In this document: one piece after another, positions 2,546 through 35,128 of the stretch
Numbering within the stretch: position 1 is the first letter of the stretch
How the letters are laid out: the number at the start of each line of letters is the position of its first letter
Virus record (IMG/VR): IMGVR_UViG_3300011337_000669
Direction: 5' to 3' (one strand)
Length of the DNA stretch: 64,000 bases
DNA from: a virus
Taxonomy: Duplodnaviria; Caudoviricetes
Notes under the pieces: model-generated
Seen by the model: the letters and a program-made list of their open reading frames with translations, nothing else
Told to the model about the DNA's origin: nothing
The model's database searches: none
Translations under genes and position numbers: made by a program

Positions 2546-3247
2546 ATGGGATATATTTATTTGTTGGTCGACACTAGAAATGGTAAAAAATATGTTGGTA
2601 AACATAACGGTAATAACAAAAATTATTGGTCATCAGGCATTTTACCGAATAGAATCGCCGAAAAATACGGTCGATCCGTGTTCACTAAATGTATATTGGA
2701 AGATAATATACCTGAACACTTGTTAAATGAAAAAGAGATTTATTTTATAGATAGAGAAAATTCTTTTACAGATGGATATAATTCAACTAAAGGTGGTGAT
2801 GGGGGAGGAGAATGGATATATCATAAATCTAAAGAAGAAAAAAAGAAAATCTCTGAAAATAAATCGAAGAAACTTTCAGGGAGAACTTTTTCTGATGCCA
2901 CTATTTTGAAAATGAAAGAATCAGGTAAGAAAAAAAAATTGACTGATGAACATAAAAAAAATATATCTATTGCGGTAAAAAAAAGAGGGGGGTTTCCACA
3001 TAGTGAAGAAACTAAAATGAAATTATCAGAGTTGAAGAAGGGAACGAAAAATGATCCTCACTCCAATTTCATGAAAACGAATAATCCGAATTTTTGTAAA
3101 ATTAGTATCAATGGAATTATTTATAAATCAATAAAAGAATATTCTATAATACATAAGATTTATTACAATACTGTAAAAAATAGATTAAATTCTAAAACAA
3201 AAAAATTTGAAGAATGGTTTAGGGTTAAAAACGAAAAAGAGGGGTAA
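2546..3247 (+). CDS. GIY-YIG homing endonuclease with NUMOD3-like repeats
   Basis: GYIY..KKYVG, GYNSTKGGDG, HSEETKMKLSE; TATTTAT at 2534-2540. Confidence 0.88.
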   Translation: MGYIYLLVDTRNGKKYVGKHNGNNKNYWSSGILPNRIAEKYGRSVFTKCILEDNIPEHLLNEKEIYFIDRENSFTDGYNSTKGGDGGGEWIYHKSKEEKKKISENKSKKLSGRTFSDATILKMKESGKKKKLTDEHKKNISIAVKKRGGFPHSEETKMKLSELKKGTKNDPHSNFMKTNNPNFCKISINGIIYKSIKEYSIIHKIYYNTVKNRLNSKTKKFEEWFRVKNEKEG

Positions 3248-7302: not shown

Positions 7303-7322
7303 TTTTTTATTATCTTTACGTC

Positions 7323-7997
7323 ATGATAAAGATAGATGTGAATAGCAAAGGTAGGACTGAACAAAATGTTTGGATATTCTCCGACCCTCACTACAACCAC
7401 AAAAATATATGCCGTGGTGTCACCAGCTGGAGAACTCAGGATGGTGAAATCCCGATCGAACAAACTCGAGATTTTCCAACTTTGGAAAAAATGAATTCCA
7501 CAATTGTTAACAACATTAATAATTGTGTAATGCCTGATGATACTCTCATATGTCTTGGAGATTGGTCTTTCGGTGGTTTCGAAAGTATCCGTGAATTTTG
7601 GGATAGAATCATGTGTAAAAACATCCACTTAATTTTGGGAAATCACGACCATCATATTGAAAAAAATAGAAATGATTGTCAAGAACTTTTCAAGAGTGTA
7701 TCTCATTACAATACTCTTGAAATAGGGCAATTTAAGTTTCGTTTGATGCACTACCCAATTAGTTCATGGGATGGTCTTGGCAAAGGTGTAATGCACTTAC
7801 ATGGTCACTGTCACCTTCCAACTCATTTAAGATTTGCTAAAGGTCAAAGAATGGATGTTGGTATGGATGGTCACCCTGAGTTCAGACCGTATAACATGAT
7901 GGATGAAGTTATACCACTCCTTCGTCATCGACCAAAAATTTCAGAAGTGGGAGAATATGACCACCATTTAGATAACATACAAAATAAAGATAAATAG
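7323..7997 (+). CDS. calcineurin-like metallophosphoesterase
   Basis: SDPH, LGDW, GNHD, HYP, HGHCH motifs. Confidence 0.9.
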   Translation: MIKIDVNSKGRTEQNVWIFSDPHYNHKNICRGVTSWRTQDGEIPIEQTRDFPTLEKMNSTIVNNINNCVMPDDTLICLGDWSFGGFESIREFWDRIMCKNIHLILGNHDHHIEKNRNDCQELFKSVSHYNTLEIGQFKFRLMHYPISSWDGLGKGVMHLHGHCHLPTHLRFAKGQRMDVGMDGHPEFRPYNMMDEVIPLLRHRPKISEVGEYDHHLDNIQNKDK

Positions 7998-7999
7998 AT

Positions 8000-8188
8000 A
8001 TGGGAAATTGGTTTTTTCACAAAAGCAGATTCGTAAAATTCGAAGGAAGATACTGGATTATTCCGTGTATATCACTTTGGATTGACAGGTATTATTTCTT
8101 GGAGACAGGAGTTGAAACTCCTGCCTTTGGTATTCAGATAAGTTTTCTTAACTTTGCTTTTGGGATGACCATACAAAAACGATATTGA
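8000..8188 (+). CDS. hypothetical protein
   Basis: ORF track; tight operon spacing. Confidence 0.65.
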   Translation: MGNWFFHKSRFVKFEGRYWIIPCISLWIDRYYFLETGVETPAFGIQISFLNFAFGMTIQKRY

Positions 8189-8189
8189 A

Positions 8190-8588
8190 ATGAAAGAACT
8201 ATTCTTATTGAGAGGATTACCAGGTAGTGGTAAAAGTACATTAGCAAAAATGTTGGTTGGTGATAAAGATTATCGCCACAAAGAAGCTGATATGTATTTT
8301 GTTGATGGAGATGGAAATTATAAGTTCCAACCATCCAAAATCAAAGAAGCTCACAAATGGTGTCAAGAAGAAATTGAATTCCTAATGAAGTATGAACATT
8401 CTTCAGTTGTAGTATCAAACACATTTACTCAAGAGTGGGAAATGGAAGAATACTATAAGTTGGCAGAGAAGTATGGATATAGAGTTCATTCCCTTATTGT
8501 TGAAAATAGACATGGGGGAGTAAATGAGCACGGAGTACCTTCTGATAAATTAGAACAAATGAAAAACCGATTTGAAATAAAGTTATGA
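8190..8588 (+). CDS. P-loop kinase (AAA_33 / polynucleotide-kinase-like domain)
   Basis: RGLPGSGKST Walker A; EADMYF; VVSNTF. Confidence 0.85.
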   Translation: MKELFLLRGLPGSGKSTLAKMLVGDKDYRHKEADMYFVDGDGNYKFQPSKIKEAHKWCQEEIEFLMKYEHSSVVVSNTFTQEWEMEEYYKLAEKYGYRVHSLIVENRHGGVNEHGVPSDKLEQMKNRFEIKL

Positions 8589-8755
8589 AAAAGAAAATAT
8601 TTCAAGGTATCTCCTTAATTGGAGTGTTTACTTTAGGTATGTACACTGCAAGCCAATTTGTGTTTGGTACTCCAGTGGATACCCATAGATGGTTAATAAC
8701 CATCCTCGCAATTGTATTCCTTTTGTCATTTGCCGACGAAACAGAAAAAAAATAA
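8585..8755 (+). CDS. small two-TM membrane protein
   Basis: Manual translation MKKKIFQGISLIGVFTLGMY...WLITILAIVFLLSF; ATGA-type overlap with upstream gene. Confidence 0.6.
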   Translation: MKKKIFQGISLIGVFTLGMYTASQFVFGTPVDTHRWLITILAIVFLLSFADETEKK

Positions 8756-8776
8756 AATTAAACCAAATTAAATAAT

Positions 8777-9001
8777 ATGTCACTACAAACACTAATTTTC
8801 AACACAAAAACCAAATCCGTCATAGTTTACGAAGGAGAACATCATTCAAAAATTCTTTACACTTTCCAAGACGTTCCAACCGTAAAAGTTTTGGACACAT
8901 ACTACGAAGTCATGGTTAAACAGGCAAGTGAAGAAGGAGAAATAAGAGTACCTGTAGGTAGATTTCCAGTCTCCAACACAAATATGTTAATCCAAAACTA
9001 A
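8777..9001 (+). CDS. hypothetical protein
   Basis: ORF track. Confidence 0.7.
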   Translation: MSLQTLIFNTKTKSVIVYEGEHHSKILYTFQDVPTVKVLDTYYEVMVKQASEEGEIRVPVGRFPVSNTNMLIQN

Positions 9002-9051
9002 CATTTTCTTTTTTCCATTTTTTTTAGTACCTTTGGGAATACGATAAAAAA

Positions 9052-9486
9052 ATGGAATTTGACTTAAACATATTGAACGATTACATAGAGAAGGGTTTGG
9101 TGGTTAAAAATGACCACCCTACCCTTCCTTTGTCTATATACAACTACACCAGAAAAGCACAATACGAGAAATTGTGGGATAATATCACCAAAAGTTGTAG
9201 AGGATTAGTTTTGGATAATCAGGGAAATGTAATCGCCAAATCTTTCGATAAGTTTTTCAACTTAGAAGAACATTCTCCTCAAGAAATACCAAATGAAGAA
9301 TTCGAAGTTTACGAAAAACTCGATGGAAGTTGTATAATTTGTTTTTATTACAAAAATAATTGGATTTTTGCGTCTCGTGGTTCATTTACAAGTGAACAAG
9401 CTCTAATGGCAGAGAAATTATCAAAAAAATATCCAATCAAAATGTTAGATAAAAGTAAATCTTATGTATTTGAAATAATTTATTAA
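9052..9486 (+). CDS. rnlA: T4 Rnl1-type RNA ligase, N-terminal fragment
   Basis: CRGLVLD, KFFN, motif I EKLDGS, SRGSF, motif III FEIIY then TAA; TACCTTTG at 9028-9035. Confidence 0.85.
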   Translation: MEFDLNILNDYIEKGLVVKNDHPTLPLSIYNYTRKAQYEKLWDNITKSCRGLVLDNQGNVIAKSFDKFFNLEEHSPQEIPNEEFEVYEKLDGSCIICFYYKNNWIFASRGSFTSEQALMAEKLSKKYPIKMLDKSKSYVFEIIY

Positions 9487-9539
9487 AAAATAGTTATCCA
9501 TTTTTTCATAAAACTCATATTTATAGTAAAGTAATAAAT

Positions 9540-10502
9540 ATGAGAATAAGAAATAAAATTTGCCCATTTTGTAATGAAAAAATATCAACCATAAATCATT
9601 TGAAAAAATGTAATCCAATTGTAGATGATAATACCGCAATTCAATTAATGATAGAAAAAACATTCAATTGTAATGTAGTAGACATTATTAACGATTATAA
9701 AAAAGGATTATCATTACCTGATATTAAAAGCAAGTATGGTCTTAGTTACAAATACACCAAACAATTGTTGATATTATTTGGGGAGTCAACGAGAACCATA
9801 TCAGAATCATGTAATCAAAATAGATTAAAAAAATGTAAACAAACTGTTATTGATAGATATGGTGTTGACAATGTTAGTAAATCTGAAAAAATAAAAAAGA
9901 AGAAAATAAAAACATTTATATCAAATTATGGGGTGGATAATATATTCAAAACAGACGGATTTACTGAGTATGTAAATAATAAATGTATTGAAAGATATGG
10001 AAAAAAAAGATTAACCAATCCCCAAAAGATATCAGAAAAAAGATTAAATTTTTCTGCCGAAAAATGGGAAAGTATTAAATCAAAGACACGAAAAACAATA
10101 CAAGAAAAATATGAAAATGGTGAATTTACTGATAAATACATATCTTCTCTTGAATTTATAGTTTCAGAAGTATTTGATAGAAATGAAATTGAGTATACGA
10201 CTCAAAAATTTATAGGTGGGTTGTCATATGACTTTCATATTACAAATACAAATATTATTGTAGAGGTGAATGGAGATTATTGGCACGCTAATCCAATTAT
10301 ATATGAAAGCGATGAGACTATAAATTATGCTAATAAGGGACACATACCTGTCTCAGATATATGGAATAGAGATTTAGAAAAGAAAAATAATGCAATTGAA
10401 TTTGGATATACGGTTTTGTATATTTGGGAGAGTGATATAAATGAGAATATAGATTATATAGATGAATTCATATTATTGGAACTATTAAATTATGGCAGGT
10501 AA
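9540..10502 (+). CDS. homing-endonuclease-like protein (Vsr/DUF559-like nuclease domain, YGVDN repeats) inserted in the RNA ligase gene
   Basis: YDFHI..IIVEVNGDYWH..GYTVLYIWE; RYGVDNVSK/NYGVDNIFK repeats; own TATTTAT at 9518-9524. Confidence 0.85.
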   Translation: MRIRNKICPFCNEKISTINHLKKCNPIVDDNTAIQLMIEKTFNCNVVDIINDYKKGLSLPDIKSKYGLSYKYTKQLLILFGESTRTISESCNQNRLKKCKQTVIDRYGVDNVSKSEKIKKKKIKTFISNYGVDNIFKTDGFTEYVNNKCIERYGKKRLTNPQKISEKRLNFSAEKWESIKSKTRKTIQEKYENGEFTDKYISSLEFIVSEVFDRNEIEYTTQKFIGGLSYDFHITNTNIIVEVNGDYWHANPIIYESDETINYANKGHIPVSDIWNRDLEKKNNAIEFGYTVLYIWESDINENIDYIDEFILLELLNYGR

Positions 10503-11097
10503 GAACAGAATTGTAGTTGATTACGGAGATTATGAAGGGTTAGTTTTATTAGGAACCTTTGATAATAATGGGAAAGAATATGATATAGATATTTGGAGAC
10601 AATATGGATTTGATGTTGTTAAGAAATATGACGGCATACAGGATTATAAGACCCTTAAATCTTCTATCTCCAAAGAAAGGGAGGGTTATGTAATAAAGTT
10701 CAGAAGTGGTCTCAGAGTCAAGATAAAAGGGGAATTTTATGTTCATCTCCACAGAATCTTAACAGGGTTTTCAAATGCCCATATTTGGGAATATTTGAAA
10801 GACAAAAAAGACATAACCACCTTGTTAGATAGTGTTCCTGACGAATTTGACTCATGGGTAAAAAATACCGTGAAAGATTTGGTCGATAAATATGAAAATA
10901 TCCTGAAAGATTATACCGAAATATTCAACGAACTGAAATCAAAAAATTTGGATACAAAAGAATTTGCAGAAAATGCAAAAAGATATGAACATCCGTCAAT
11001 ATTATTCAGTATGTTGAATGGAAAAGATGTGTCTCCATTCATATGGAAAATGATAAAACCTGAATTTAGCAAACCGTTTTGGATGAAAGAATCATGA
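10492..11097 (+). CDS. rnlA: T4 Rnl1-type RNA ligase, C-terminal fragment
   Basis: NRIVVDYGDYEGLVLLG, motif IV EGYVI, motif V RVKIKG; start overlaps the endonuclease stop. Confidence 0.85.
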   Translation: MAGKNRIVVDYGDYEGLVLLGTFDNNGKEYDIDIWRQYGFDVVKKYDGIQDYKTLKSSISKEREGYVIKFRSGLRVKIKGEFYVHLHRILTGFSNAHIWEYLKDKKDITTLLDSVPDEFDSWVKNTVKDLVDKYENILKDYTEIFNELKSKNLDTKEFAENAKRYEHPSILFSMLNGKDVSPFIWKMIKPEFSKPFWMKES

Positions 11098-11294
11098 AAC
11101 CGAGTTTAGAAAAAATATTGAGCAGATACATTGTTCACACAGGATTTTTTGATATAAATTCAGTTGAAAAATGTATGGAAAAATCTTATGATTTGGGGAT
11201 TGAGGAATTTTTGGAATGGTTATCAAAACAAGACCATTTGTCCGACAACATAAACTACATCATCGAAGAATGGGAGAACAAAAATAAATTATGA
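11094..11294 (+). CDS. hypothetical protein
   Basis: ATGA overlap with upstream stop. Confidence 0.65.
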   Translation: MKPSLEKILSRYIVHTGFFDINSVEKCMEKSYDLGIEEFLEWLSKQDHLSDNINYIIEEWENKNKL

Positions 11295-11620
11295 AATATT
11301 ATCTTTTGGTTTTGGCATTTCAAATTATGTTCAATATCTTTAAGGTGTTAGAAATAAAATACACATACGAGAACAAGTTGAGTCTATTGTTGTACAATTC
11401 CATTTACATTAACTTAGTCGCATTAGCATCAGTTTATTGGTCATTGGACCTTCTGTTTGAAGGTGATTGGTGGGTAATTCCATTTTATGTTGGTGGAAGT
11501 GTTATTGGAAAATGGATTGCCATGCGTCATGTTGAAAATATCAGATACAAAATATTCAAGTTATTCGGAAAAAAAATTAGTAAATTACAGAATAAACCAG
11601 TCAAAACAGATGAAGACTAA
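11291..11620 (+). CDS. small membrane protein
   Basis: Three hydrophobic segments. Confidence 0.7.
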   Translation: MKYYLLVLAFQIMFNIFKVLEIKYTYENKLSLLLYNSIYINLVALASVYWSLDLLFEGDWWVIPFYVGGSVIGKWIAMRHVENIRYKIFKLFGKKISKLQNKPVKTDED

Positions 11621-12263: not shown

Positions 12264-12441
12264 AATATTAATAGCAATTTTCTTTGCACTTCTAACACCC
12301 ATTGTTATTTCTATTATGTGGGTAAAAGGTATAGATTATATGCAAAAAAATCATCCCGATTACAAAGGATATGACTTATTTGATGAAGGAGAAGAAGATA
12401 AACCTCTTGACGAAGATGAAAAAGATGATATCAAAAATTAA
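12247..12441 (+). CDS. small membrane-anchored protein
   Basis: N-terminal TM, acidic tail. Confidence 0.65.
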   Translation: MTISVEILIAIFFALLTPIVISIMWVKGIDYMQKNHPDYKGYDLFDEGEEDKPLDEDEKDDIKN

Positions 12442-12525
12442 ATTGATTCTGAAAGATATTTGGTTGGGAATCACCCTATCCAATGAATTCAAAAATAACC
12501 ACCAACAATGGCCTAAAATTTAGTT

Positions 12526-13596
12526 ATGAATAAAATAGATTTACAATATCAACAACTCCTACAAGATATTCTTGATAATGGGGTGGAGAAAAAAACTAGG
12601 AATGGTGACACTATTTCAGTATTTGGTAGACAAATTCGTCACAAAATGAGTGAGGGGTTTCCACTATTGACTACAAAAAAAATGGCATTTAAGACGATGG
12701 TAGTTGAGTTACTATGGTTTTTAAGAGGTGATACGTCAATAGAGTATCTACTTAAAAATGACTGCAACATATGGACGGGAGACGCTTATAAGAACTATTG
12801 TAATCAAATTCCTGAGTATAGTAAGCAATTTACTATGTCTAAAGAAGAGTACATTGAAAAAATAAAAACTGATGATGAGTTTGCAGAGAGATTTGGAAAT
12901 CTCGGAAAAATCTATGGGCATGGTTGGCGTAACTGGAATGGGGAAATCGACCAAATATCGGAGTTAATTGTGTTATTAAAAGAAAGTCCTGATTCCAGAC
13001 GTATGGTTGTAAATGCTTGGAACGCCTCAGATTTACCTCACCAAGTTTTGCCACCTTGTCATTATGGATTTCAAGTTTATACACGAGAGTTGACAGTTGG
13101 TGAAAGATTAGATTTGGCATCAAAAACATATGGCACATTTGACCCATTTGATTTCGGTTTCGGAATACCTGAAAAAGTAGACCATAATCAAATAGATGAA
13201 TTATATCCGGTTCCCAAACGAGCAATTTCTCTAATGTTCAATATGAGATCATCGGACACTTTTCTTGGATTGCCATTTAACATCGCATCTTATGGGTTGT
13301 TATTGGAAATTATTGCAAAGGAAGTAAATATGGTTCCTGATGAATTGATTGGTAATTTGGGTGATGTACATCTATACAAAAACCACATTGAACAAGCAAA
13401 AGAACAAATGTATAGAAGACCTTATGATTTACCAAAAGTTCAAATCACCGAAAGAAATTGGTATCAACATGAATTGGTTAAAGAACATTTGGGTGAAAAA
13501 ACTTTCGATCAAAAGATTATGAGTTATAGGCCTGATTGTTTTGAGTTAATTAATTATCAGTATCATCCAACCATCAAAGCTCCTCTGTCCAATTAA
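12526..13596 (+). CDS. thyA: thymidylate synthase
   Basis: FPLLTTKK, ELLWFLRG, RRMVVNAWN, LPPCH, RSSDTFLGLPFNIASY, HLYKNH. Confidence 0.97.
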   Translation: MNKIDLQYQQLLQDILDNGVEKKTRNGDTISVFGRQIRHKMSEGFPLLTTKKMAFKTMVVELLWFLRGDTSIEYLLKNDCNIWTGDAYKNYCNQIPEYSKQFTMSKEEYIEKIKTDDEFAERFGNLGKIYGHGWRNWNGEIDQISELIVLLKESPDSRRMVVNAWNASDLPHQVLPPCHYGFQVYTRELTVGERLDLASKTYGTFDPFDFGFGIPEKVDHNQIDELYPVPKRAISLMFNMRSSDTFLGLPFNIASYGLLLEIIAKEVNMVPDELIGNLGDVHLYKNHIEQAKEQMYRRPYDLPKVQITERNWYQHELVKEHLGEKTFDQKIMSYRPDCFELINYQYHPTIKAPLSN

Positions 13597-13599
13597 GTC

Positions 13600-13836
13600 G
13601 TGCAAATTGTTATTCTACTCAGTAAAGATGTTCCTGAAGATATTTCAGAATTAATCTTGGGACACAAGTTGGAGGGTGGTTACTCGATAGATTACGCATT
13701 AAATTCTTTGGTTTCCTATCATAATGGTAAAGAAATTATTATATTTAATTTCACAAAGTACCTCGTATTAGATAACAGGTTTAGTGGATATAAAATAGAC
13801 GATTACGGAACGAAAATAGTTATAAATTTCAAATAA
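13600..13836 (+). CDS. hypothetical protein
   Basis: ORF track, GTG start. Confidence 0.6.
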   Translation: MQIVILLSKDVPEDISELILGHKLEGGYSIDYALNSLVSYHNGKEIIIFNFTKYLVLDNRFSGYKIDDYGTKIVINFK

Positions 13837-14073
13837 ATGTTAAAGTTAACAGAAACACAAAAAAATCAAACTTATGAAATAAGTTTGCAATCTAATGGTA
13901 TTGTTGTCGGTTCATTTGTAAAAATTGATGGATTCTTTTATTATTACCCGCCCAAAGAAAGATTTTGGGGATGTTATTCAGAAGAATTTCTCAAGAGTTT
14001 ATCAAATGAGTTAGAAAAATTAAATTACCCAATTAATAAAAGTATTGACGAATACTTCGAATTACAAACATAG
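13837..14073 (+). CDS. hypothetical protein
   Basis: ORF track, abuts upstream stop. Confidence 0.65.
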   Translation: MLKLTETQKNQTYEISLQSNGIVVGSFVKIDGFFYYYPPKERFWGCYSEEFLKSLSNELEKLNYPINKSIDEYFELQT

Positions 14074-14082
14074 AATTATAAT

Positions 14083-14241
14083 ATGGAAGATTCGAAAGCT
14101 CGTTGCAAATGTGGTTGGCCTTGGATATTCCATTATAGTTCAAAAGGAAAAATGAATGCAATATTCAAGGCCAAGCTCCCACAAAAAACTATTGAAGATT
14201 ATATAAAAGGAGATTATTGGCTAAAAAATGAAAAAAGTTAA
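14083..14241 (+). CDS. 52-aa hypothetical protein
   Basis: Manual translation MEDSKARCKCGWPWIFHY...; fills operon gap. Confidence 0.5.
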   Translation: MEDSKARCKCGWPWIFHYSSKGKMNAIFKAKLPQKTIEDYIKGDYWLKNEKS

Positions 14242-14428
14242 AGAAGTATTTGTAATTTTTAATCCTTACGATAATGGATACTATGATGGGGAAGGGTTCT
14301 TTCGAGGTATTCTATTTTGCAAAAAATATGTTGAGAAAGAAAATGCGATATTAGATATCGAAAAAATATTGAACAGTTCAATTGGAAAAACTTACTTAAA
14401 AATTGAAACATTACACACCAACTCGTGA
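14228..14428 (+). CDS. hypothetical protein
   Basis: ORF track. Confidence 0.65.
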   Translation: MKKVKEVFVIFNPYDNGYYDGEGFFRGILFCKKYVEKENAILDIEKILNSSIGKTYLKIETLHTNS

Positions 14429-14430
14429 TT

Positions 14431-14772
14431 ATGAAAGAAATTAGACCTTGGGGTTTTTTTGAAATATTATTAGACACTGATTATACCAAAGTGAAACAAA
14501 TTACGGTTAATCCAAATCAGAGATTATCCTATCAGTACCACAACCAAAGAAAAGAATATTGGACTATTGTTCAAGGTTCGGCGACCATAATTCTTGATGA
14601 TGAAAAAGTTTTCAGATATCAAGGGGAGTCAATTCATATTCCACTTGGGTCAAAACATCGAATAATGAATGAAGATGAAACACCGTTGGTGTTCATTGAA
14701 GTTCAAGTTGGAACTTATTTTGGTGAAGATGATATTGTTAGAATTGAGGATGACTACGGGAGAGATAATTAA
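14431..14772 (+). CDS. cupin, mannose-6-phosphate isomerase type II C-terminal-like
   Basis: RPWG, RLSYQYH..RKEYW, HRIMN, IEVQVGTYFGEDDIVRIEDDYGR. Confidence 0.9.
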   Translation: MKEIRPWGFFEILLDTDYTKVKQITVNPNQRLSYQYHNQRKEYWTIVQGSATIILDDEKVFRYQGESIHIPLGSKHRIMNEDETPLVFIEVQVGTYFGEDDIVRIEDDYGRDN

Positions 14773-14789
14773 TCTCTTCCCGTTAATTC

Positions 14790-15392
14790 CTATAAACTAA
14801 TATACAGTTGTAATAATTTTTGAGAAAATGTTTTAGCATATCTGTTAACCAAATCCATATCATCTACGTCCTTTTGGTTTGATTCCATATACTTGATTAC
14901 ACCATCTATAATTTTATTTTTGGATTCCTCGGCATTATCCAAAACTTCTTGGAAGTTTTCATCATCTTCCATATTTTCTCCATAGTATCTTTCAATATGT
15001 GATTTACCTGCATATAATAATGGGGCGGCTCCAAACATATTAACAATTCCCGAGTCTCTAATTGTTGTTAGATATTCTCTAAACCATCTCCAATCAAAGT
15101 TATTTAATAAGTCAGAGTTTTGGGTTAAAAATTCCCAACCTGGATTACGTTGTTCATCTATTTTTTCCGAAGAAACCTTTTTCCATGAATCTGTAGAACT
15201 AATTAAGGCTAAATTAGACCCATTTTCCCATTTAACACTAATTATCTTTTCATCACCATTAGGTTCAAATGGGTCAGTAGTTATGTCGGTAACTACACCA
15301 ATCGTGCCAGGAAGTACACCAATTTCTCCTTCCATGTGATAGCACATAACTTTATCCCCAACTTTTAATTCCGCATTTAATGATCCTTTCAT
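14790..15392 (-). CDS. DUF4314-like SH3-type domain fused to a second small domain
   Basis: LKVGDKV..GTIGVV..VKWENGSNLALI; IRDSGIVNMFGA; TATTTAT at 15397-15403. Confidence 0.7.
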   Translation of the reverse strand: MKGSLNAELKVGDKVMCYHMEGEIGVLPGTIGVVTDITTDPFEPNGDEKIISVKWENGSNLALISSTDSWKKVSSEKIDEQRNPGWEFLTQNSDLLNNFDWRWFREYLTTIRDSGIVNMFGAAPLLYAGKSHIERYYGENMEDDENFQEVLDNAEESKNKIIDGVIKYMESNQKDVDDMDLVNRYAKTFSQKLLQLYISL

Positions 15393-32583: not shown

Positions 32584-35073
32584 TTACTTCTTCAAATGAT
32601 TGAACCTGAAGACAATGTTTTCCTCTTCAGGTTTATCTGAGAATTTAGGCCCCAAATATTCTTGGAAGTTGTTTCTCAACTTTGTCTCGATTTGTTTTTC
32701 AACCTTTTCGGGAGTAAGGTTCGGTATTTCACCTTTCAAATAATTTTCAGGTGTTGGAACTTGTTTTCCGTCTACCACTTTCAAAACGTCTTGAATATCC
32801 ACGTTCACGACGTTCTTGTCGTCAATCTCTTCAACAGAAGAAATTTTGAATTTGATACTAATTTTCGGTTCCACACCATAGGACGAAGATTTTGCGGTAG
32901 AAACTTTTTGTGAAATCAATGAAGGTGCCATATTTCTGAATGCCATTCGTTTAAGTTCCATCACTTTCTCGTGAGTGGCGCCTCTCTCAATCATTCCCAT
33001 TTCCTGACGAGACAATAGATAAACTTGAGACTCCAAAGTATCATTCCATCTATATGGTCGGGACGCGTTCATTTGCTTTCCTGTGGAAGAAGAATATCTA
33101 TCTGAGGTTTCATACCACTTTCCATCTTTGAAGATATAAACTGGATACCACCCATAAGACTCGACAATATATATCTTTCCATCCATTGTTGTTCTCCAAT
33201 ATCCTCTCAAGTTTGAACCTTCAAATGGAAGTTGTGCTATGGTATAAATCTTGGCATTATAGTTAGGAGTACGTTTACCTTTCATCTTTCTTGGATCGAT
33301 AAAGTTGTCCTTTGTCAATGATGAATAATCACCATCTTGTCGATAGTTCAAAAGATATAATTCCAAAATATATGGCGCAAAATCGGCCTCGATTCCAAAA
33401 TATGGTAAATAATTTTTGATTGAGGATTGTAAGTCTCTTTTGTTGTTGTAATTAGTTTTTTGAGTATTAAGAAATTTGAACAGTTTGACAATCACCTTAT
33501 TTGGCTCAAGGTCAGTATTAACCGCCTCGTTCATCATATCAAAATCCTCATCATCGTATTCATCTTGACATGTTATTTGGTGAAACCCTAATAATCCGTC
33601 TTCAAACCATTCTTTACACATCGTAATCATTAAATTAGTAGTTTTCACAACGGGCCAATCACCTGAATGAAAATATTCCCACAGTTCGTCTTGAAACAAA
33701 AAATCGTCGACTGCTTTATTTATGACAGCATCTGCATATTCAAACTCATTATCAAATTTTTCACATGGGTCTGTAAACTCTGTTTCAGCGTGATAGATAT
33801 AATCCCGCATGGTCTTCTCATTAAACCTTCTTCTCAACTTTTCCAAAAAAGCGGATTTGTTCTCAACAATTGTTTTGAATTGTGATTCGGTGACAATATA
33901 TTCTTTTTTGATTTTTGTTTCGATAATTTTTATTGGTGGGGTAATTAAGTTTGGTTCGTTCCATCCTTTTGGTGGATAATTTGTGCTTAAATAAATATCT
34001 TTCATCGGGTTCATAGAAAGAGCTGTGTTGAGTTCAGATTCTATATTTTTTTCGTCATTAAAACTAATTCTTATTAGTTTAATTCCGTTTTCCCTACAGT
34101 ATTTGTTTTTTGCCAAATCGTTAAATTTCGTTTCTTCGTACCCCTTTTCACCACCATAATTTGGTTTTGGATCGAAATGTTGTCCCCCATCGAATTCTGC
34201 GATTACGACAGTCCCATCTTCCTTAACAAAGTAAGCATCTGCTTTTAACTTATTTCTGTTCCCCTTACCTTTAGAACTGTACTCTGATAATTTTTTTTCT
34301 TTTTCTACAGTATATCCTGAAAGTTCTAACAAACGTCTCATAGTAGATTCACCTCTGCGCTCCTTCTTGTTACGACAAGCAAATTCCAAGTAGCCCTTGT
34401 ATCCTGCAGCAACTCCATTAGGATAAAGGTTTATTGGATTTTCGTGATTTTTACATTTGATATTTTTTACGAACAATCTAGTTTGATGTGATCCTTCACT
34501 ACGTGGAACTAAGTACCAATCCTGTTCTATATCTTTAATGAAAAGTGGAGAATCTGGATTTTCGGGAACATCAGGAAAAATCAGTGGAGAATCTTCAGGA
34601 ATTGTATTTAGAAAATTTTCTACCTTAGACTTAAGATCTTGAGGATACGTCTCATCATTCGACTCAGAACGACATTTTTCACAGGTGAAATCTGTTAATC
34701 GATTAACTCTAATATCCTTTAACTTTCCATGAACTACTCCTTCTTTATCTTTTTTGGTACAACTTACTCCCTTGATAATTTTATTGTGTTTTTCATCCGT
34801 GTAGTAACTAACATTTTCAAAATCATATTGAGGGAACTCAATTTTAAAATTTTCTGTGAGTTGTTTTTGGTCTTTTACTCTCAATTCAGACAATAGATTT
34901 TGCATCGTAAGACTTTGGTCGCCAGTTCGATTTCTTCTGTTACTAACCCATGTGGATATATCCTTAGAATTGGAATCATTGTAAAAATCATTTAGTGTAT
35001 TAAATCGTGAAATATATTCTTTTATTGAATCTATATCCCATTTTGATTCTCGTCCTTCCAAAATTACTTTCAT
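32584..35073 (-). CDS. 830-aa mosaic protein: PD-(D/E)xK-like endonuclease domain, internal leader, KRR module, C-terminal domain
   Basis: KADAYF..IAEFDGGQHF..KNKYCRENGIKLIRI; KEYIVTESQFKTIVE; LRRRFN..FEYADAVI; TATTTAT at 35078-35084. Confidence 0.8.
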   Translation of the reverse strand: MKVILEGRESKWDIDSIKEYISRFNTLNDFYNDSNSKDISTWVSNRRNRTGDQSLTMQNLLSELRVKDQKQLTENFKIEFPQYDFENVSYYTDEKHNKIIKGVSCTKKDKEGVVHGKLKDIRVNRLTDFTCEKCRSESNDETYPQDLKSKVENFLNTIPEDSPLIFPDVPENPDSPLFIKDIEQDWYLVPRSEGSHQTRLFVKNIKCKNHENPINLYPNGVAAGYKGYLEFACRNKKERRGESTMRRLLELSGYTVEKEKKLSEYSSKGKGNRNKLKADAYFVKEDGTVVIAEFDGGQHFDPKPNYGGEKGYEETKFNDLAKNKYCRENGIKLIRISFNDEKNIESELNTALSMNPMKDIYLSTNYPPKGWNEPNLITPPIKIIETKIKKEYIVTESQFKTIVENKSAFLEKLRRRFNEKTMRDYIYHAETEFTDPCEKFDNEFEYADAVINKAVDDFLFQDELWEYFHSGDWPVVKTTNLMITMCKEWFEDGLLGFHQITCQDEYDDEDFDMMNEAVNTDLEPNKVIVKLFKFLNTQKTNYNNKRDLQSSIKNYLPYFGIEADFAPYILELYLLNYRQDGDYSSLTKDNFIDPRKMKGKRTPNYNAKIYTIAQLPFEGSNLRGYWRTTMDGKIYIVESYGWYPVYIFKDGKWYETSDRYSSSTGKQMNASRPYRWNDTLESQVYLLSRQEMGMIERGATHEKVMELKRMAFRNMAPSLISQKVSTAKSSSYGVEPKISIKFKISSVEEIDDKNVVNVDIQDVLKVVDGKQVPTPENYLKGEIPNLTPEKVEKQIETKLRNNFQEYLGPKFSDKPEEENIVFRFNHLKK

Positions 35074-35128
35074 ATTCATAAATACTCGATAAAAACAAAA
35101 TCCCTCCATATTGGGGGATTACAAATCA

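What the first reader, a model, noticed from the sequence alone, without database searches (positions are those of the whole stretch)
9052..11097. RNA ligase split through its active site by an endonuclease gene, with no intron or intein
Seen: the ligase frame ends FEIIY-TAA (9486) and resumes as MAGK-NRIVVDY (10492). The ~1-kb insert is almost entirely an endonuclease ORF with its own TATTTAT motif. Only 53 nt of AT-rich spacer precede it and its stop overlaps the new ATG, leaving no room for a group I/II core. Motifs I, Ia and III fall in the N-half; IIIa, IV and V in the C-half. Both halves are otherwise intact. Established: intact relatives read roughly FEIIYPENRIV (my recall), and phage Aeh1 nrdA is a functional gene-in-pieces created by mobE insertion. 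Inference: a two-chain RNA ligase that assembles in trans, with the mobile element supplying the second start codon.
Basis: partly seen in the sequence, partly recalled or inferred. Interest (0 to 1): 0.75.

Follow-up and report, generated by a model that had tools for sequence, protein, structure and literature searches.

The report
Phage RNA ligase split by homing endonuclease
A giant freshwater phage carries its RNA-repair ligase as two separate genes, cut just after an active-site motif by a selfish endonuclease gene with no intron or intein to rejoin them; this is a real and widespread new example of the known "genes-in-pieces" phenomenon, not a new kind of system.

Summary
Observation confirmed. 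A T4 Rnl1-type RNA ligase is encoded as an N-half (9052-9486, ends FEIIY-stop) and a C-half (10492-11097, starts MAGK-NRIVVDY). A 320-aa Vsr-like (EDxHD) homing endonuclease gene lies between them, and its last 11 nt contain the C-half start codon. No intron family matches, and neither half carries intein sequence. About 30 related phage contigs have the uninterrupted gene (…EIIYP(Q/E)NRIV…).

The same codon is broken in at least 20 other metagenomic loci, mostly by an unrelated GIY-YIG-like endonuclease. The split state is scattered over the ligase tree. The endonuclease is much younger than the halves around it. About 40-55 codons on each side travel with it.

All split halves keep their reading frames, catalytic motifs and a start codon. 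A complex model re-forms the single-chain fold (0.92, best control 0.00). The halves therefore probably work as a two-chain enzyme, but this is inferred, not shown.

The kind is known: Aeh1 nrdA/mobE, the intein-less "fractured" SbcD gene of Dassa 2009, and the annotated split rnlA of Acinetobacter phage 133 (a different site). This scan has already reported split RNA ligases on other DNA (e1-3539266, e1-1956363).

The parts
7323..7997 (+). Metallophosphoesterase gene; a candidate RNA end-healing phosphoesterase (context)
   Evidence: Pfam Metallophos 30.2 bits; phrog_547 phosphoesterase E 2e-40. The role in RNA repair is inferred from its neighbours.
8190..8588 (+). P-loop kinase (AAA_33); a candidate polynucleotide 5'-kinase (context)
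   Evidence: Pfam AAA_33 48.8 bits; phrog_2071 E 2e-42 and phrog_505 polynucleotide kinase E 5e-11. Other split-ligase loci also carry a kinase plus a phosphatase beside the ligase.
9052..9486 (+). RNA ligase N-half (144 aa) with motif I Lys89 and motif III Glu141; ends FEIIY-TAA
9401..9486 (+). Junction-proximal N tract that does not align at DNA level with the closest intact alleles (a putative co-conversion tract)
   Evidence: blastn HSPs to L003, L008, L010 and L001 stop at 9326-9401. The protein here resembles a more distant ligase clade.
9487..9539 (+). 53-nt AT-rich spacer
   Evidence: No significant remnant of the target was found here (p=0.74), unlike in the GIY-YIG cassettes.
9514..9544 (+). 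11-bp hairpin (arms 9514-9524 and 9534-9544) whose 3' arm holds the endonuclease start codon (9540-9542). Its 5' arm contains the ATATTTATA gene-start motif (9517-9525).
   Evidence: MFE -9.7 kcal/mol, z -2.9, 3 of 200 shuffles fold as well. Inverted repeat I1. Motif statistics.
9540..10502 (+). Free-standing Vsr-like (EDxHD family) homing endonuclease gene, 320 aa: N-terminal Cys pair and DUF7487 repeats, C-terminal nuclease
   Evidence: Pfam DUF7487 37.8 bits and DUF559 25.9 bits; phrog_3339 homing endonuclease E 2e-17. Invariant D231, E242, D246, H249, D278 and W296-E297 are shared with copies from split-intein fractured genes.
10492..10502 (+). Overlap of the endonuclease 3' end with the C-half start (ATG GCA GGT AAG; the endonuclease stop TAA is at 10500-10502)
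10492..11097 (+). RNA ligase C-half (201 aa) with motif IV E64-G65 and motif V K77-x-K79
   Evidence: phrog_562 E 1e-30, profile 167-367; invariant columns
10492..10615 (+). Junction-proximal C tract not alignable at DNA level with the closest intact alleles, but 95% identical to the L001-type split allele
   Evidence: A comparable ~40-codon footprint is seen in the P0095 (split) / P0092 (intact) sister pair.

Best explanation
A mobile cassette built around a free-standing homing endonuclease gene has inserted into the phage's T4 Rnl1-type RNA ligase gene, three residues after the motif III glutamate. Shown from sequence: the cassette closes the upstream part with a stop codon directly after ...EIIY. 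It carries the phage's usual gene-start motif, with a hairpin over the endonuclease AUG. It re-opens the downstream part with its own start codon (M-A/G-G-K/Q in place of Pro and the next residue). There is no intron or intein. The cassette moves horizontally between very different ligase alleles, always to this codon, and takes roughly 40-55 flanking codons with it on each side. Inferred: the 144-aa and 201-aa products are translated separately from one transcript. The C-half is probably coupled to or co-transcribed with the endonuclease. The two products associate non-covalently by re-forming the beta-sheet of the nucleotidyltransferase domain, with the motif III strand of the N-half pairing with residues 17-23 of the C-half, and motif I pairing with motif IV. 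This would give a two-chain ligase that seals broken tRNA/RNA together with the neighbouring kinase and phosphoesterase.
For: Architecture. Intact alleles were found in about 30 related contigs and the break falls at the same codon in all split ones.

Mobility: the split state needs 14 changes for 14 split rows on the C-half tree, at least 6 of them forced by supported branches. A split/intact sister pair is ~93% identical except for the first ~40 residues. The dS of the endonuclease is far below the dS of the halves in nearly all pairs, for example 0.01 against 0.61 and 0.48, with endonuclease omega 0.2-0.5. Window against L126 shows 3 substitutions in ~950 nt of endonuclease against 20/435 and 20/574 in the halves. 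N-halves are mosaics: identity is 68-84% in residues 1-88 for most pairs but 89-100% in residues 89-144.

Function of the halves: 35 of 35 N-type proteins ending E(I/V)I(Y/..) keep K-x-D-G. 25 of 25 complete stand-alone C-halves keep motifs IV and V. Every sampled locus has an open C-half of 201-217 aa. The restart is ATG in 10 distinct sequences and GTG in 1. Codon 3 is GGT, GGA or GGG, always Gly. By contrast, the duplicated target copy left in the spacer of the GIY-YIG cassettes has decayed and contains stops. C-half dN/dS between the window and the L001-type split relative is 0.12 (17 of 43 changes non-synonymous against 81% expected, p=2e-9).

Complex model: ipSAE 0.92 in three runs, best of 3 controls 0.00. 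That mark was reached by 58 of 80 solved complexes and 2 of 110 mismatched pairs. Runs agree in >=93% of contacts, and partner pLDDT is >=77.

Context and precedent: a kinase plus phosphoesterase or phosphatase lies beside the ligase here and in other split loci. Aeh1 NrdA-a/NrdA-b is active as split chains (PMC3045599).
Against: There is no biochemical or transcript evidence for this allele. The RNA-library contigs that matched came from relatives with the uninterrupted gene.

The cassette is younger than the halves almost everywhere. Most sequence conservation of the halves could therefore predate each invasion, so it does not prove selection in the split state. The dN/dS argument assumes that the window and the L001-type phage share a split ancestor.

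The complex model may score high simply because the two chains are pieces of a fold solved as one chain (T4 Rnl1, 2c5u). It shows likeness, not binding.

A selfish endonuclease can persist in a dispensable gene by drive alone, and Rnl1 is non-essential in T4 on most hosts (textbook knowledge).

The endonuclease hairpin and overlap could limit C-half translation and unbalance the two chains.
Confidence: 0.65

Rival explanations
1. The ligase is dead. The endonuclease disrupted a dispensable accessory gene, and the two ORFs look intact only because each invasion is recent and the element spreads by drive faster than the halves decay.
For: The endonuclease is much younger than the halves in nearly all pairs. 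The split state is polyphyletic with intact sisters. No transcript or protein data exist. Rnl1 is dispensable for T4 on most hosts (textbook knowledge).
Against: No decayed half was seen in more than 20 loci, 35 N-stumps and 25 C-halves. The untranslated target remnant in the same cassettes has visibly decayed. The start codon and Gly-Gly are kept through synonymous change. Endonuclease lineages at this site differ by dS of about 1, so the site has been occupied for a long time. C-half omega is 0.12 between two split relatives.
Confidence: 0.25
2. The insert is removed, or the chains are rejoined, by a non-canonical intron, a degenerate split intein or translational bypass, so that a single-chain ligase is made.
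For: Close relatives of this endonuclease sit in group I introns and between split inteins (PMC2677866). The two halves happen to be in the same frame here, because the insert is 1005 nt.
Against: No Rfam intron hit appears even at E<=10. The ORF fills all but 53 nt of the insert, and its stop overlaps the C-half start. The GIY-YIG cassettes at the same codon share no insert sequence with this one that could form a ribozyme core, and there the halves are in different frames. The N-half ends and the C-half begins in ligase sequence, leaving no room for the ~100-aa and ~35-aa intein fragments seen in L072-L074. 1005 nt is far beyond any known bypass.
Confidence: 0.03
3. The halves have acquired separate roles, for example the C-half as an RNA- or tail-fibre-binding protein and the N-half as a stand-alone adenylyltransferase or decoy, rather than re-forming one enzyme.
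For: T4 Rnl1 has a second, non-enzymatic role in tail-fibre attachment (textbook knowledge; the PHROG name). The two ORFs may be translated at different rates because of the hairpin and overlap.
Against: Catalytic residues of both halves stay invariant. The nucleotidyltransferase fold cannot form from either half alone: the interface strands come from both chains in the model.
Confidence: 0.07

Closest known systems
Aeromonas phage Aeh1 nrdA-a / mobE / nrdA-b 'genes in pieces' (Friedrich et al. 2007; Crona et al. 2011, PMC3045599)
   Same: A free-standing homing endonuclease gene splits an enzyme gene near its active site into two separately translated ORFs with no intron or intein. Endonuclease translation is held down by an RNA hairpin. 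The host enzyme works as assembled fragments (shown for NrdA).
   Different: The endonuclease family differs (HNH MobE there; Vsr-like/EDxHD here, and GIY-YIG-like in sister cassettes). The host enzyme differs. In Aeh1, charged tails derived from the insertion are essential. Here there are no such tails: no extra residues on the N-half and only M-A/G-G on the C-half. The Aeh1 case is a single phage, whereas this split is widespread and polyphyletic. Activity is untested here.
[quoted passage not shown] 2009, PMC2677866); I-Bth0305I, prototype of the EDxHD family (Taylor et al. 2011, PMC3239194)
   Same: The endonuclease family is the same: it aligns along its full length with copies lying between split-intein halves in NAD-DNA ligase, ATP-DNA ligase and an Rnl2-type RNA ligase. 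GIY-YIG and Vsr-like genes alternate as the insert. The endonuclease stop overlaps the downstream start. A hairpin lies over the endonuclease start. One intein-less case (SbcD-like) is described.
   Different: No split intein flanks the break here (tested), so protein trans-splicing cannot rejoin the chains. RNA ligase is not among the eight enzyme types of that paper (0 mentions). The SbcD case has 25-aa and 9-aa extra tails, and here there are essentially none.
Split rnlA (rnlA-A / rnlA-B) of Acinetobacter phage 133, NC_015250, as annotated in GenBank
   Same: A T4-type RNA ligase 1 gene of a cultured T4-like phage is annotated as two ORFs (112 and 321 aa) with a 273-aa ORF between them.
   Different: The break point differs: between Pfam profile positions 32 and 48, so before motif I, against position ~94 here, after motif III. 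The intervening ORF is different. I found no paper describing it.
T4 gene 39 / mobA / gene 60, and gene 43A / seg / 43B of Aeromonas phage 25 (reviewed in Edgell, Gibb and Belfort 2010, PMC2988022)
   Same: Endonuclease-associated splits of essential enzymes into subunits that reassemble. The review also suggests that an endonuclease can invade an already split gene.
   Different: Different enzymes and endonucleases. Those cases are single lineages, not a population-wide recurrent invasion.

Membership tests
T4 Rnl1-type ATP-dependent RNA ligase (Pfam PF09511, phrog_562) | Sequence membership above the curated threshold | tested here: met
   The N-half scores 48.6 bits against a 28.3 cut-off. 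The C-half has no Pfam hit on its own but matches phrog_562 at E 1e-30 over profile 167-367. The intact relative L010 scores 66.7 bits and aligns to T4 Rnl1 structure 2c5u at E 6e-14.
T4 Rnl1-type ATP-dependent RNA ligase (Pfam PF09511, phrog_562) | Nucleotidyltransferase motifs I (KxDG), III (E), IV (EG) and V (KxK) | tested here: met
   K89, D91, G92 and E141 in the N-half; E64, G65, K77 and K79 in the C-half. All are invariant columns.
T4 Rnl1-type ATP-dependent RNA ligase (Pfam PF09511, phrog_562) | All motifs on one polypeptide | tested here: not met
   The motifs lie in two ORFs separated by 1005 nt.
T4 Rnl1-type ATP-dependent RNA ligase (Pfam PF09511, phrog_562) | Adenylylation and RNA sealing activity | not testable with these tools
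   This needs biochemistry.
EDxHD / Vsr-like homing endonucleases (Dassa 2009; I-Bth0305I) | C-terminal Vsr-like nuclease with the conserved E, D, H, D residues and the F/Y-W-H motif | tested here: met
   E242-V-N-G-D246-Y-W-H249 and D278 are invariant across 10 family members. Pfam DUF559 scores 25.9 bits against a 20.6 cut-off. There is a weak match to the Vsr-fold protein 3hrl (E 0.11).
EDxHD / Vsr-like homing endonucleases (Dassa 2009; I-Bth0305I) | Occurs as a mobile insert in conserved enzyme genes | tested here: met
   It sits in the ligase here. Relatives lie in three other ligase genes between split inteins. Mobility is inferred from the young endonuclease and the polyphyletic split state.
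EDxHD / Vsr-like homing endonucleases (Dassa 2009; I-Bth0305I) | Cleaves the uninterrupted allele near the insertion site | not testable with these tools
   This needs a cleavage assay on an intact allele, for example the L010-type target.
Fractured gene in the strict sense (split intein plus free-standing endonuclease) | An intein N-fragment at the end of the upstream ORF and an intein C-fragment at the start of the downstream ORF | tested here: not met
   The halves give no intein Pfam hit. Both align to intact ligases up to the junction residue. The relatives L072-L074 do show Intein_splicing hits in those positions.
Intein-less, intron-less genes-in-pieces (Aeh1 nrdA/mobE type) | A host gene cut into two ORFs by a free-standing endonuclease gene, with no splicing element | tested here: met
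Intein-less, intron-less genes-in-pieces (Aeh1 nrdA/mobE type) | Insertion-derived tails on the broken ends that are needed for assembly | tested here: not met
   The N-half has no extra residues. The C-half has M-A-G in place of Pro.
Intein-less, intron-less genes-in-pieces (Aeh1 nrdA/mobE type) | The fragments assemble into an active enzyme | tested here: inconclusive
   The model supports binding (0.92, best control 0.00), but this may reflect likeness to the solved single-chain fold. No activity data exist.
Group I or group II intron | A ribozyme core detectable by covariance model | tested here: not met
   Rfam at E<=10 over 9300-10700 gave only three chance-level hits to unrelated small RNAs.

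The most novel reading that the evidence does not exclude
The element is not just an endonuclease gene. It is a self-contained 'split-and-reassemble' cassette made of stop codon, gene-start signal, exchangeable endonuclease (GIY-YIG-like or Vsr-like in the same frame), restart codon, and the co-converted flanking codons that encode the two beta-strands forming the interface between the halves. On this reading it can invade any Rnl1 allele down to ~40% identity without destroying the enzyme, and the second endonuclease family entered by replacing the first inside an already split gene.
Probability: 0.3. Interest if true: 0.65.

Novelty: new member of a known kind. Interest (0 to 1): 0.45.

Why it matters
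This adds an RNA-repair ligase, broken inside its nucleotidyltransferase domain and without assembly tails, to the short list of enzymes that seem to tolerate being cut in two by a selfish endonuclease. The metagenomic data give an unusually complete population picture of such an element: intact and split alleles side by side, co-conversion footprints, a decayed target duplicate, and two unrelated endonucleases sharing one break codon and one restart. If the halves are active, they would be a natural design for a two-piece RNA ligase. They would also offer a tractable system for studying how mobile elements neutralise the damage they cause.

Tried and rejected
1. Transcript evidence. Four RNA-type public runs held small shares of the stretch. 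When laid, their contigs covered only the outer parts of the ligase gene. They carried the intact-type sequence at the loose ends (for example ...INEETGLPVI... at 10621) and showed no joints. They come from relatives and say nothing about this allele.

2. 'Decaying endonuclease with intact halves' in the 97%-identical relative L126. The apparent break of the endonuclease ORF is a scaffold gap of Ns, so I dropped it.

3. Long-term co-divergence of endonuclease and halves, as a clean test of selection in the split state. This failed because the endonuclease is younger than the halves in almost all pairs.

4. Homology of the window's spacer to a target remnant, or to the GIY-YIG cassettes' spacers. 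There is no significant remnant (p=0.74). Spacer similarity is significant for the window against only some family-2 loci, and not for its relatives L122 and L134. The 'shared frame' therefore rests on the break codon, the restart and the ATATTTATA motif only.

5. The whole genome was not available, so I could not exclude a second, intact ligase elsewhere in the genome. Within the window there is none.

6. A PDB sequence search gave no GIY-YIG hit for the family-2 endonuclease. Pfam GIY-YIG is only sub-threshold (E 0.004 and 0.013), so I call it 'GIY-YIG-like'.

7. The sigma-70 promoter and terminator scan was uninformative: promoter-like sites were at the shuffle level and no terminator was found.

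8. P0071 looked like an intein at this site. Its LAGLIDADG intein is actually at motif I (KLDG|C), a different position.

9. Literature searches for a split or fractured RNA ligase found no paper. The library does not hold most subscription journals.
Full report
**What is there.**
The region contains three same-strand ORFs:
- 9052-9486, 144 aa, ending ...SYVFEIIY-TAA.
- 9540-10502, 320 aa.
- 10492-11097, 201 aa, beginning MAGKNRIVVDY.

The first ORF passes Pfam RNA_lig_T4_1 (48.6 bits, cut-off 28.3). The first and third match consecutive parts of the T4 Rnl1-type profile phrog_562 (positions 20-164 and 167-367 of 377). An uninterrupted relative (L010, 349 aa) aligns to the T4 Rnl1 structure 2c5u. 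That alignment puts the break at FEFVA|PTNRIV, three to four residues after the motif III glutamate. Motif I (K89-x-D-G) and motif III (E141) lie in the N-half. Motif IV (E64-G65) and motif V (K77-x-K79) lie in the C-half. All are invariant alignment columns.

Upstream lie a metallophosphoesterase (7323-7997) and an AAA_33 P-loop kinase (8190-8588). Together with the ligase these form a plausible heal-and-seal RNA repair set. Other split-ligase loci likewise carry a kinase plus a phosphatase or phosphoesterase next to the ligase.

**The insert.**
The middle ORF is a homing endonuclease of the Vsr-like family: Pfam DUF7487 and DUF559 and phrog_3339. It aligns along its full length with relatives and keeps every invariant residue: D231, E242-x-N-G-D246-Y-W-H249, D278 and W296-E297. 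This matches the EDxHD motif defined for I-Bth0305I (PMC3239194).

Three of those relatives (L072, L073, L074) lie between ORFs that end in an intein N-fragment and begin with an intein C-fragment. The host genes are an NAD-DNA ligase, an Rnl2-type RNA ligase and an ATP-DNA ligase. That is the 'fractured gene' layout of Dassa et al. 2009 (PMC2677866).

**No splicing element here.**
- An Rfam scan at E<=10 over 9300-10700 finds no intron.
- Only 53 nt precede the endonuclease ORF, and its stop (10500-10502) lies 8 nt after the C-half ATG.
- Both halves align with intact ligases up to the junction residue and have no intein hit.
- At the same codon in other phages the insert is a different endonuclease with no sequence in common, and there the halves are in different frames. 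A shared ribozyme core or an in-frame element is therefore excluded.

**The endonuclease start.**
It occurs 15 times in the window against 3.2 expected. In 12 cases it lies 4-18 nt before an ORF start, including an endolysin, a methyltransferase and another GIY-YIG gene. It is therefore the phage's general gene-start signal.

In front of the endonuclease it forms the 5' arm of an 11-bp hairpin (9514-9524 with 9534-9544) whose 3' arm contains the AUG (z -2.9). This resembles the translation-limiting hairpins described for mobE and the fractured-gene endonucleases (PMC2677866 section 14; PMC3045599). No terminator-like site lies within 8500-11500.

**Relatives: intact and split.**
In IMG/VR about 30 distinct related contigs carry one uninterrupted ORF reading ...EIIYP(Q/E)NRIV.... 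Three contigs (L001, L002, L039) are split at the same codon by a 272-aa ORF. That ORF matches phrog_314 'homing endonuclease' and Pfam NUMOD3. Its N-terminus is GIY-YIG-like, and the Pfam GIY-YIG hit is sub-threshold (E 0.004-0.013) in two relatives.

A DNA pattern for the stand-alone C-half start found 19 IMG/VR contigs. Every one has an N-half ending FEIIY-stop and an open C-half of 201-217 aa wherever the contig allows. Inserts are 761-1677 nt.

The insert ORFs fall into two unrelated families:
- Vsr-like: the window, L122-124 and L134, 53% identical to one another.
- GIY-YIG-like: 17 loci, some with an extra 67-78-aa ORF.

In the 5.8-billion-protein collection, 35 N-type proteins end exactly at E(I/V)IY and all keep KxDG. 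Among the best 150 representatives matching the C-half, 14 are stand-alone C-halves starting M-(G/A)-(G)-(K/Q/R)-NRIVVDY and 86 are intact. No named phage in the GenBank collection has this split.

**The cassette is mobile.**
- On a tree of C-half regions, with the junction columns removed, the split state needs 14 changes for 14 split rows, at least 6 of them forced by supported branches.
- One split protein (P0095) is ~93% identical to an intact sister (P0092) over residues 42-200, but only ~45% identical over the first ~40 residues.
- N-halves are mosaics. Residues 89-144 are 89-100% identical within a 'type', while residues 1-88 are 68-84% identical in most pairs.
- For the window itself, the closest intact alleles stop aligning at 9326-9401 and resume at 10615-10621. 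The junction-proximal protein segments resemble a more distant ligase clade.
- Synonymous divergence of the endonuclease is far lower than that of the surrounding halves in nearly all pairs, for example 0.01 against 0.61 and 0.48. The endonuclease is itself under purifying selection, with omega 0.2-0.5.
- The window and its 97% relative L126 differ at 3 of ~950 endonuclease positions, against 20/435 and 20/574 in the halves.

This is the pattern expected of homing with co-conversion of flanks.

**Anatomy of the junctions.**
In the GIY-YIG cassettes the spacer after the N-half stop is a decayed second copy of the target. L129 reads IYPQNSVVLDYD there, other loci have stops inside it, and the similarity is significant in most loci (p 0.000-0.05). 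ATATTTATA and the endonuclease follow. A functional copy is then re-opened by ATG/GTG-GGN-GGN-(C/A)AR.

In the window's family no remnant is detectable (p 0.3-0.7). In that family the endonuclease ORF runs 11-28 nt into the C-half, so the endonuclease gene itself supplies the start codon.

Two unrelated endonucleases share the break codon, the M-G/A-G-K/Q restart and the gene-start motif. I therefore think one replaced the other inside an already split gene. This is an inference. Edgell et al. made a similar suggestion for gene 43 (PMC2988022).

The window phage and the L001-type phage are 90-92% identical in both flanks, and C-half homology begins 6 nt before the start codon. The endonuclease is replaced, and the distal N-half is saturated for synonymous change (dS 1.9).

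**Do the halves work?**
Evidence for:
- No decayed half was found among more than 20 loci, 35 N-stumps and 25 complete C-halves, all with their catalytic motifs. The untranslated target remnant in the same cassettes has decayed.
- The restart codon is always ATG or GTG, and codon 3 is Gly through GGT, GGA or GGG. This indicates constraint at the protein level.
- C-half dN/dS between the window and the L001-type split relative is 0.12 (p=2e-9 against neutrality).
- A complex model scores ipSAE 0.92 in three runs, with the best of 3 controls at 0.00. That mark was reached by 58 of 80 solved complexes and 2 of 110 mismatched pairs. Runs agree in >=93% of contacts, and partner pLDDT is >=77. N-half 136-144 pairs with C-half 17-23, and the motif I strand pairs with the motif IV strand.

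Caveats:
- The model may pass only because the two chains are pieces of a fold solved as one chain.
- Conservation may largely predate each recent invasion.
- Rnl1 is an accessory gene.
- I have no transcript or protein data.
- I could not search the rest of the genome for a second ligase; the window has none.

I put the two-chain enzyme at about 0.65 and a dead gene maintained by drive at about 0.25.

**Comparison with what is known.**
The kind is established:
- Aeh1 nrdA/mobE, shown to be active (PMC3045599).
- T4 gene 39/60 with mobA, and gene 43 with seg (PMC2988022).
- The intein-less SbcD-like gene split by a Vsr-like endonuclease (PMC2677866).
- Acinetobacter phage 133, whose GenBank record annotates 'rnlA-A' (112 aa) and 'rnlA-B' (321 aa) with a 273-aa ORF between them. 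The break is at a different place, between Pfam profile positions 32 and 48.

I found no paper that describes any split RNA ligase.

What differs here:
- The site lies after motif III.
- There are no assembly tails. Aeh1 needs them, and SbcD has 25-aa and 9-aa extensions.
- The split is recurrent and polyphyletic.
- Two endonuclease families share one frame.

This scan has already reported split RNA ligases on other DNA (e1-3539266, e1-1956363, and several split-intein cases). I therefore class this as a new member of a known kind, of moderate interest.

Noticed in passing
window 2546-3247 (+): A second free-standing GIY-YIG endonuclease gene (starts MGYIYLLVDTRNGKKYVGKH), preceded by ATATTTATA at 2533. 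It is weakly similar (29% over 177 aa, E 5e-4) to the GIY-YIG-like endonuclease that splits the ligase in other phages.
   Followed up: partly
window 32584-35109 (-): An 841-aa ORF whose residues ~80-464 match homing/HNH endonuclease PHROGs (phrog_9084, 559, 7140). It may be an endonuclease fused into, or an intein within, a larger gene.
   Followed up: no
window 7313-8765: The block holding the metallophosphoesterase, a small ORF, the AAA_33 kinase and a 56-aa hydrophobic ORF is present (90% identity) in the L039-type split-ligase phage. It is missing at this position in the close relatives with an intact ligase (L010, L008, L003).
   Followed up: no
window 12438-14207 (thymidylate synthase ORF 12526-13596), also 14428-14742 and 14789-15178: These segments are absent from the otherwise 92%-identical L001-type contig, so they are indels between close relatives. 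The ThyA ORF is unusually long at 356 aa.
   Followed up: no
window-wide, e.g. 2533, 9517, 15412, 17556, 26312, 59169 (+); 57572, 43445, 38793, 25993, 23597 (-): ATATTTATA lies 4-18 nt upstream of 12 ORF starts (15 copies against 3.2 expected). It looks like a genome-wide promoter or initiation signal of this phage.
   Followed up: partly
P0071 (714 aa, metagenomic protein): A ligase homologue carrying a LAGLIDADG intein inserted at motif I (KLDG|C...HN|S). This is a third kind of mobile element in the same gene family, at another site.
   Followed up: partly
P0165 (657 aa, metagenomic protein): A single-chain fusion of Rnl1-type ligase, AAA_33 kinase and HAD_PNKP phosphatase: the whole heal-and-seal pathway in one protein.
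   Followed up: no
L072 1872-5150; L073 545-3102; L074 1417-4053: Split-intein 'fractured genes' with a Vsr-like endonuclease in an NAD-dependent DNA ligase, an Rnl2-type (PF09414/PHA02142) RNA ligase and an ATP-dependent DNA ligase.
   Followed up: partly
L128 1193-1429; L143 6711-6917 and 7301-7504: Some GIY-YIG cassettes carry an extra 67-78-aa ORF of unknown family between the endonuclease and the C-half. It is duplicated in L143 (no Pfam hit).
   Followed up: no
P0027 (189 aa, on a 330-kb contig): An N-half stump ending FEIIY with a ~45-residue insertion after the motif I region.
   Followed up: no
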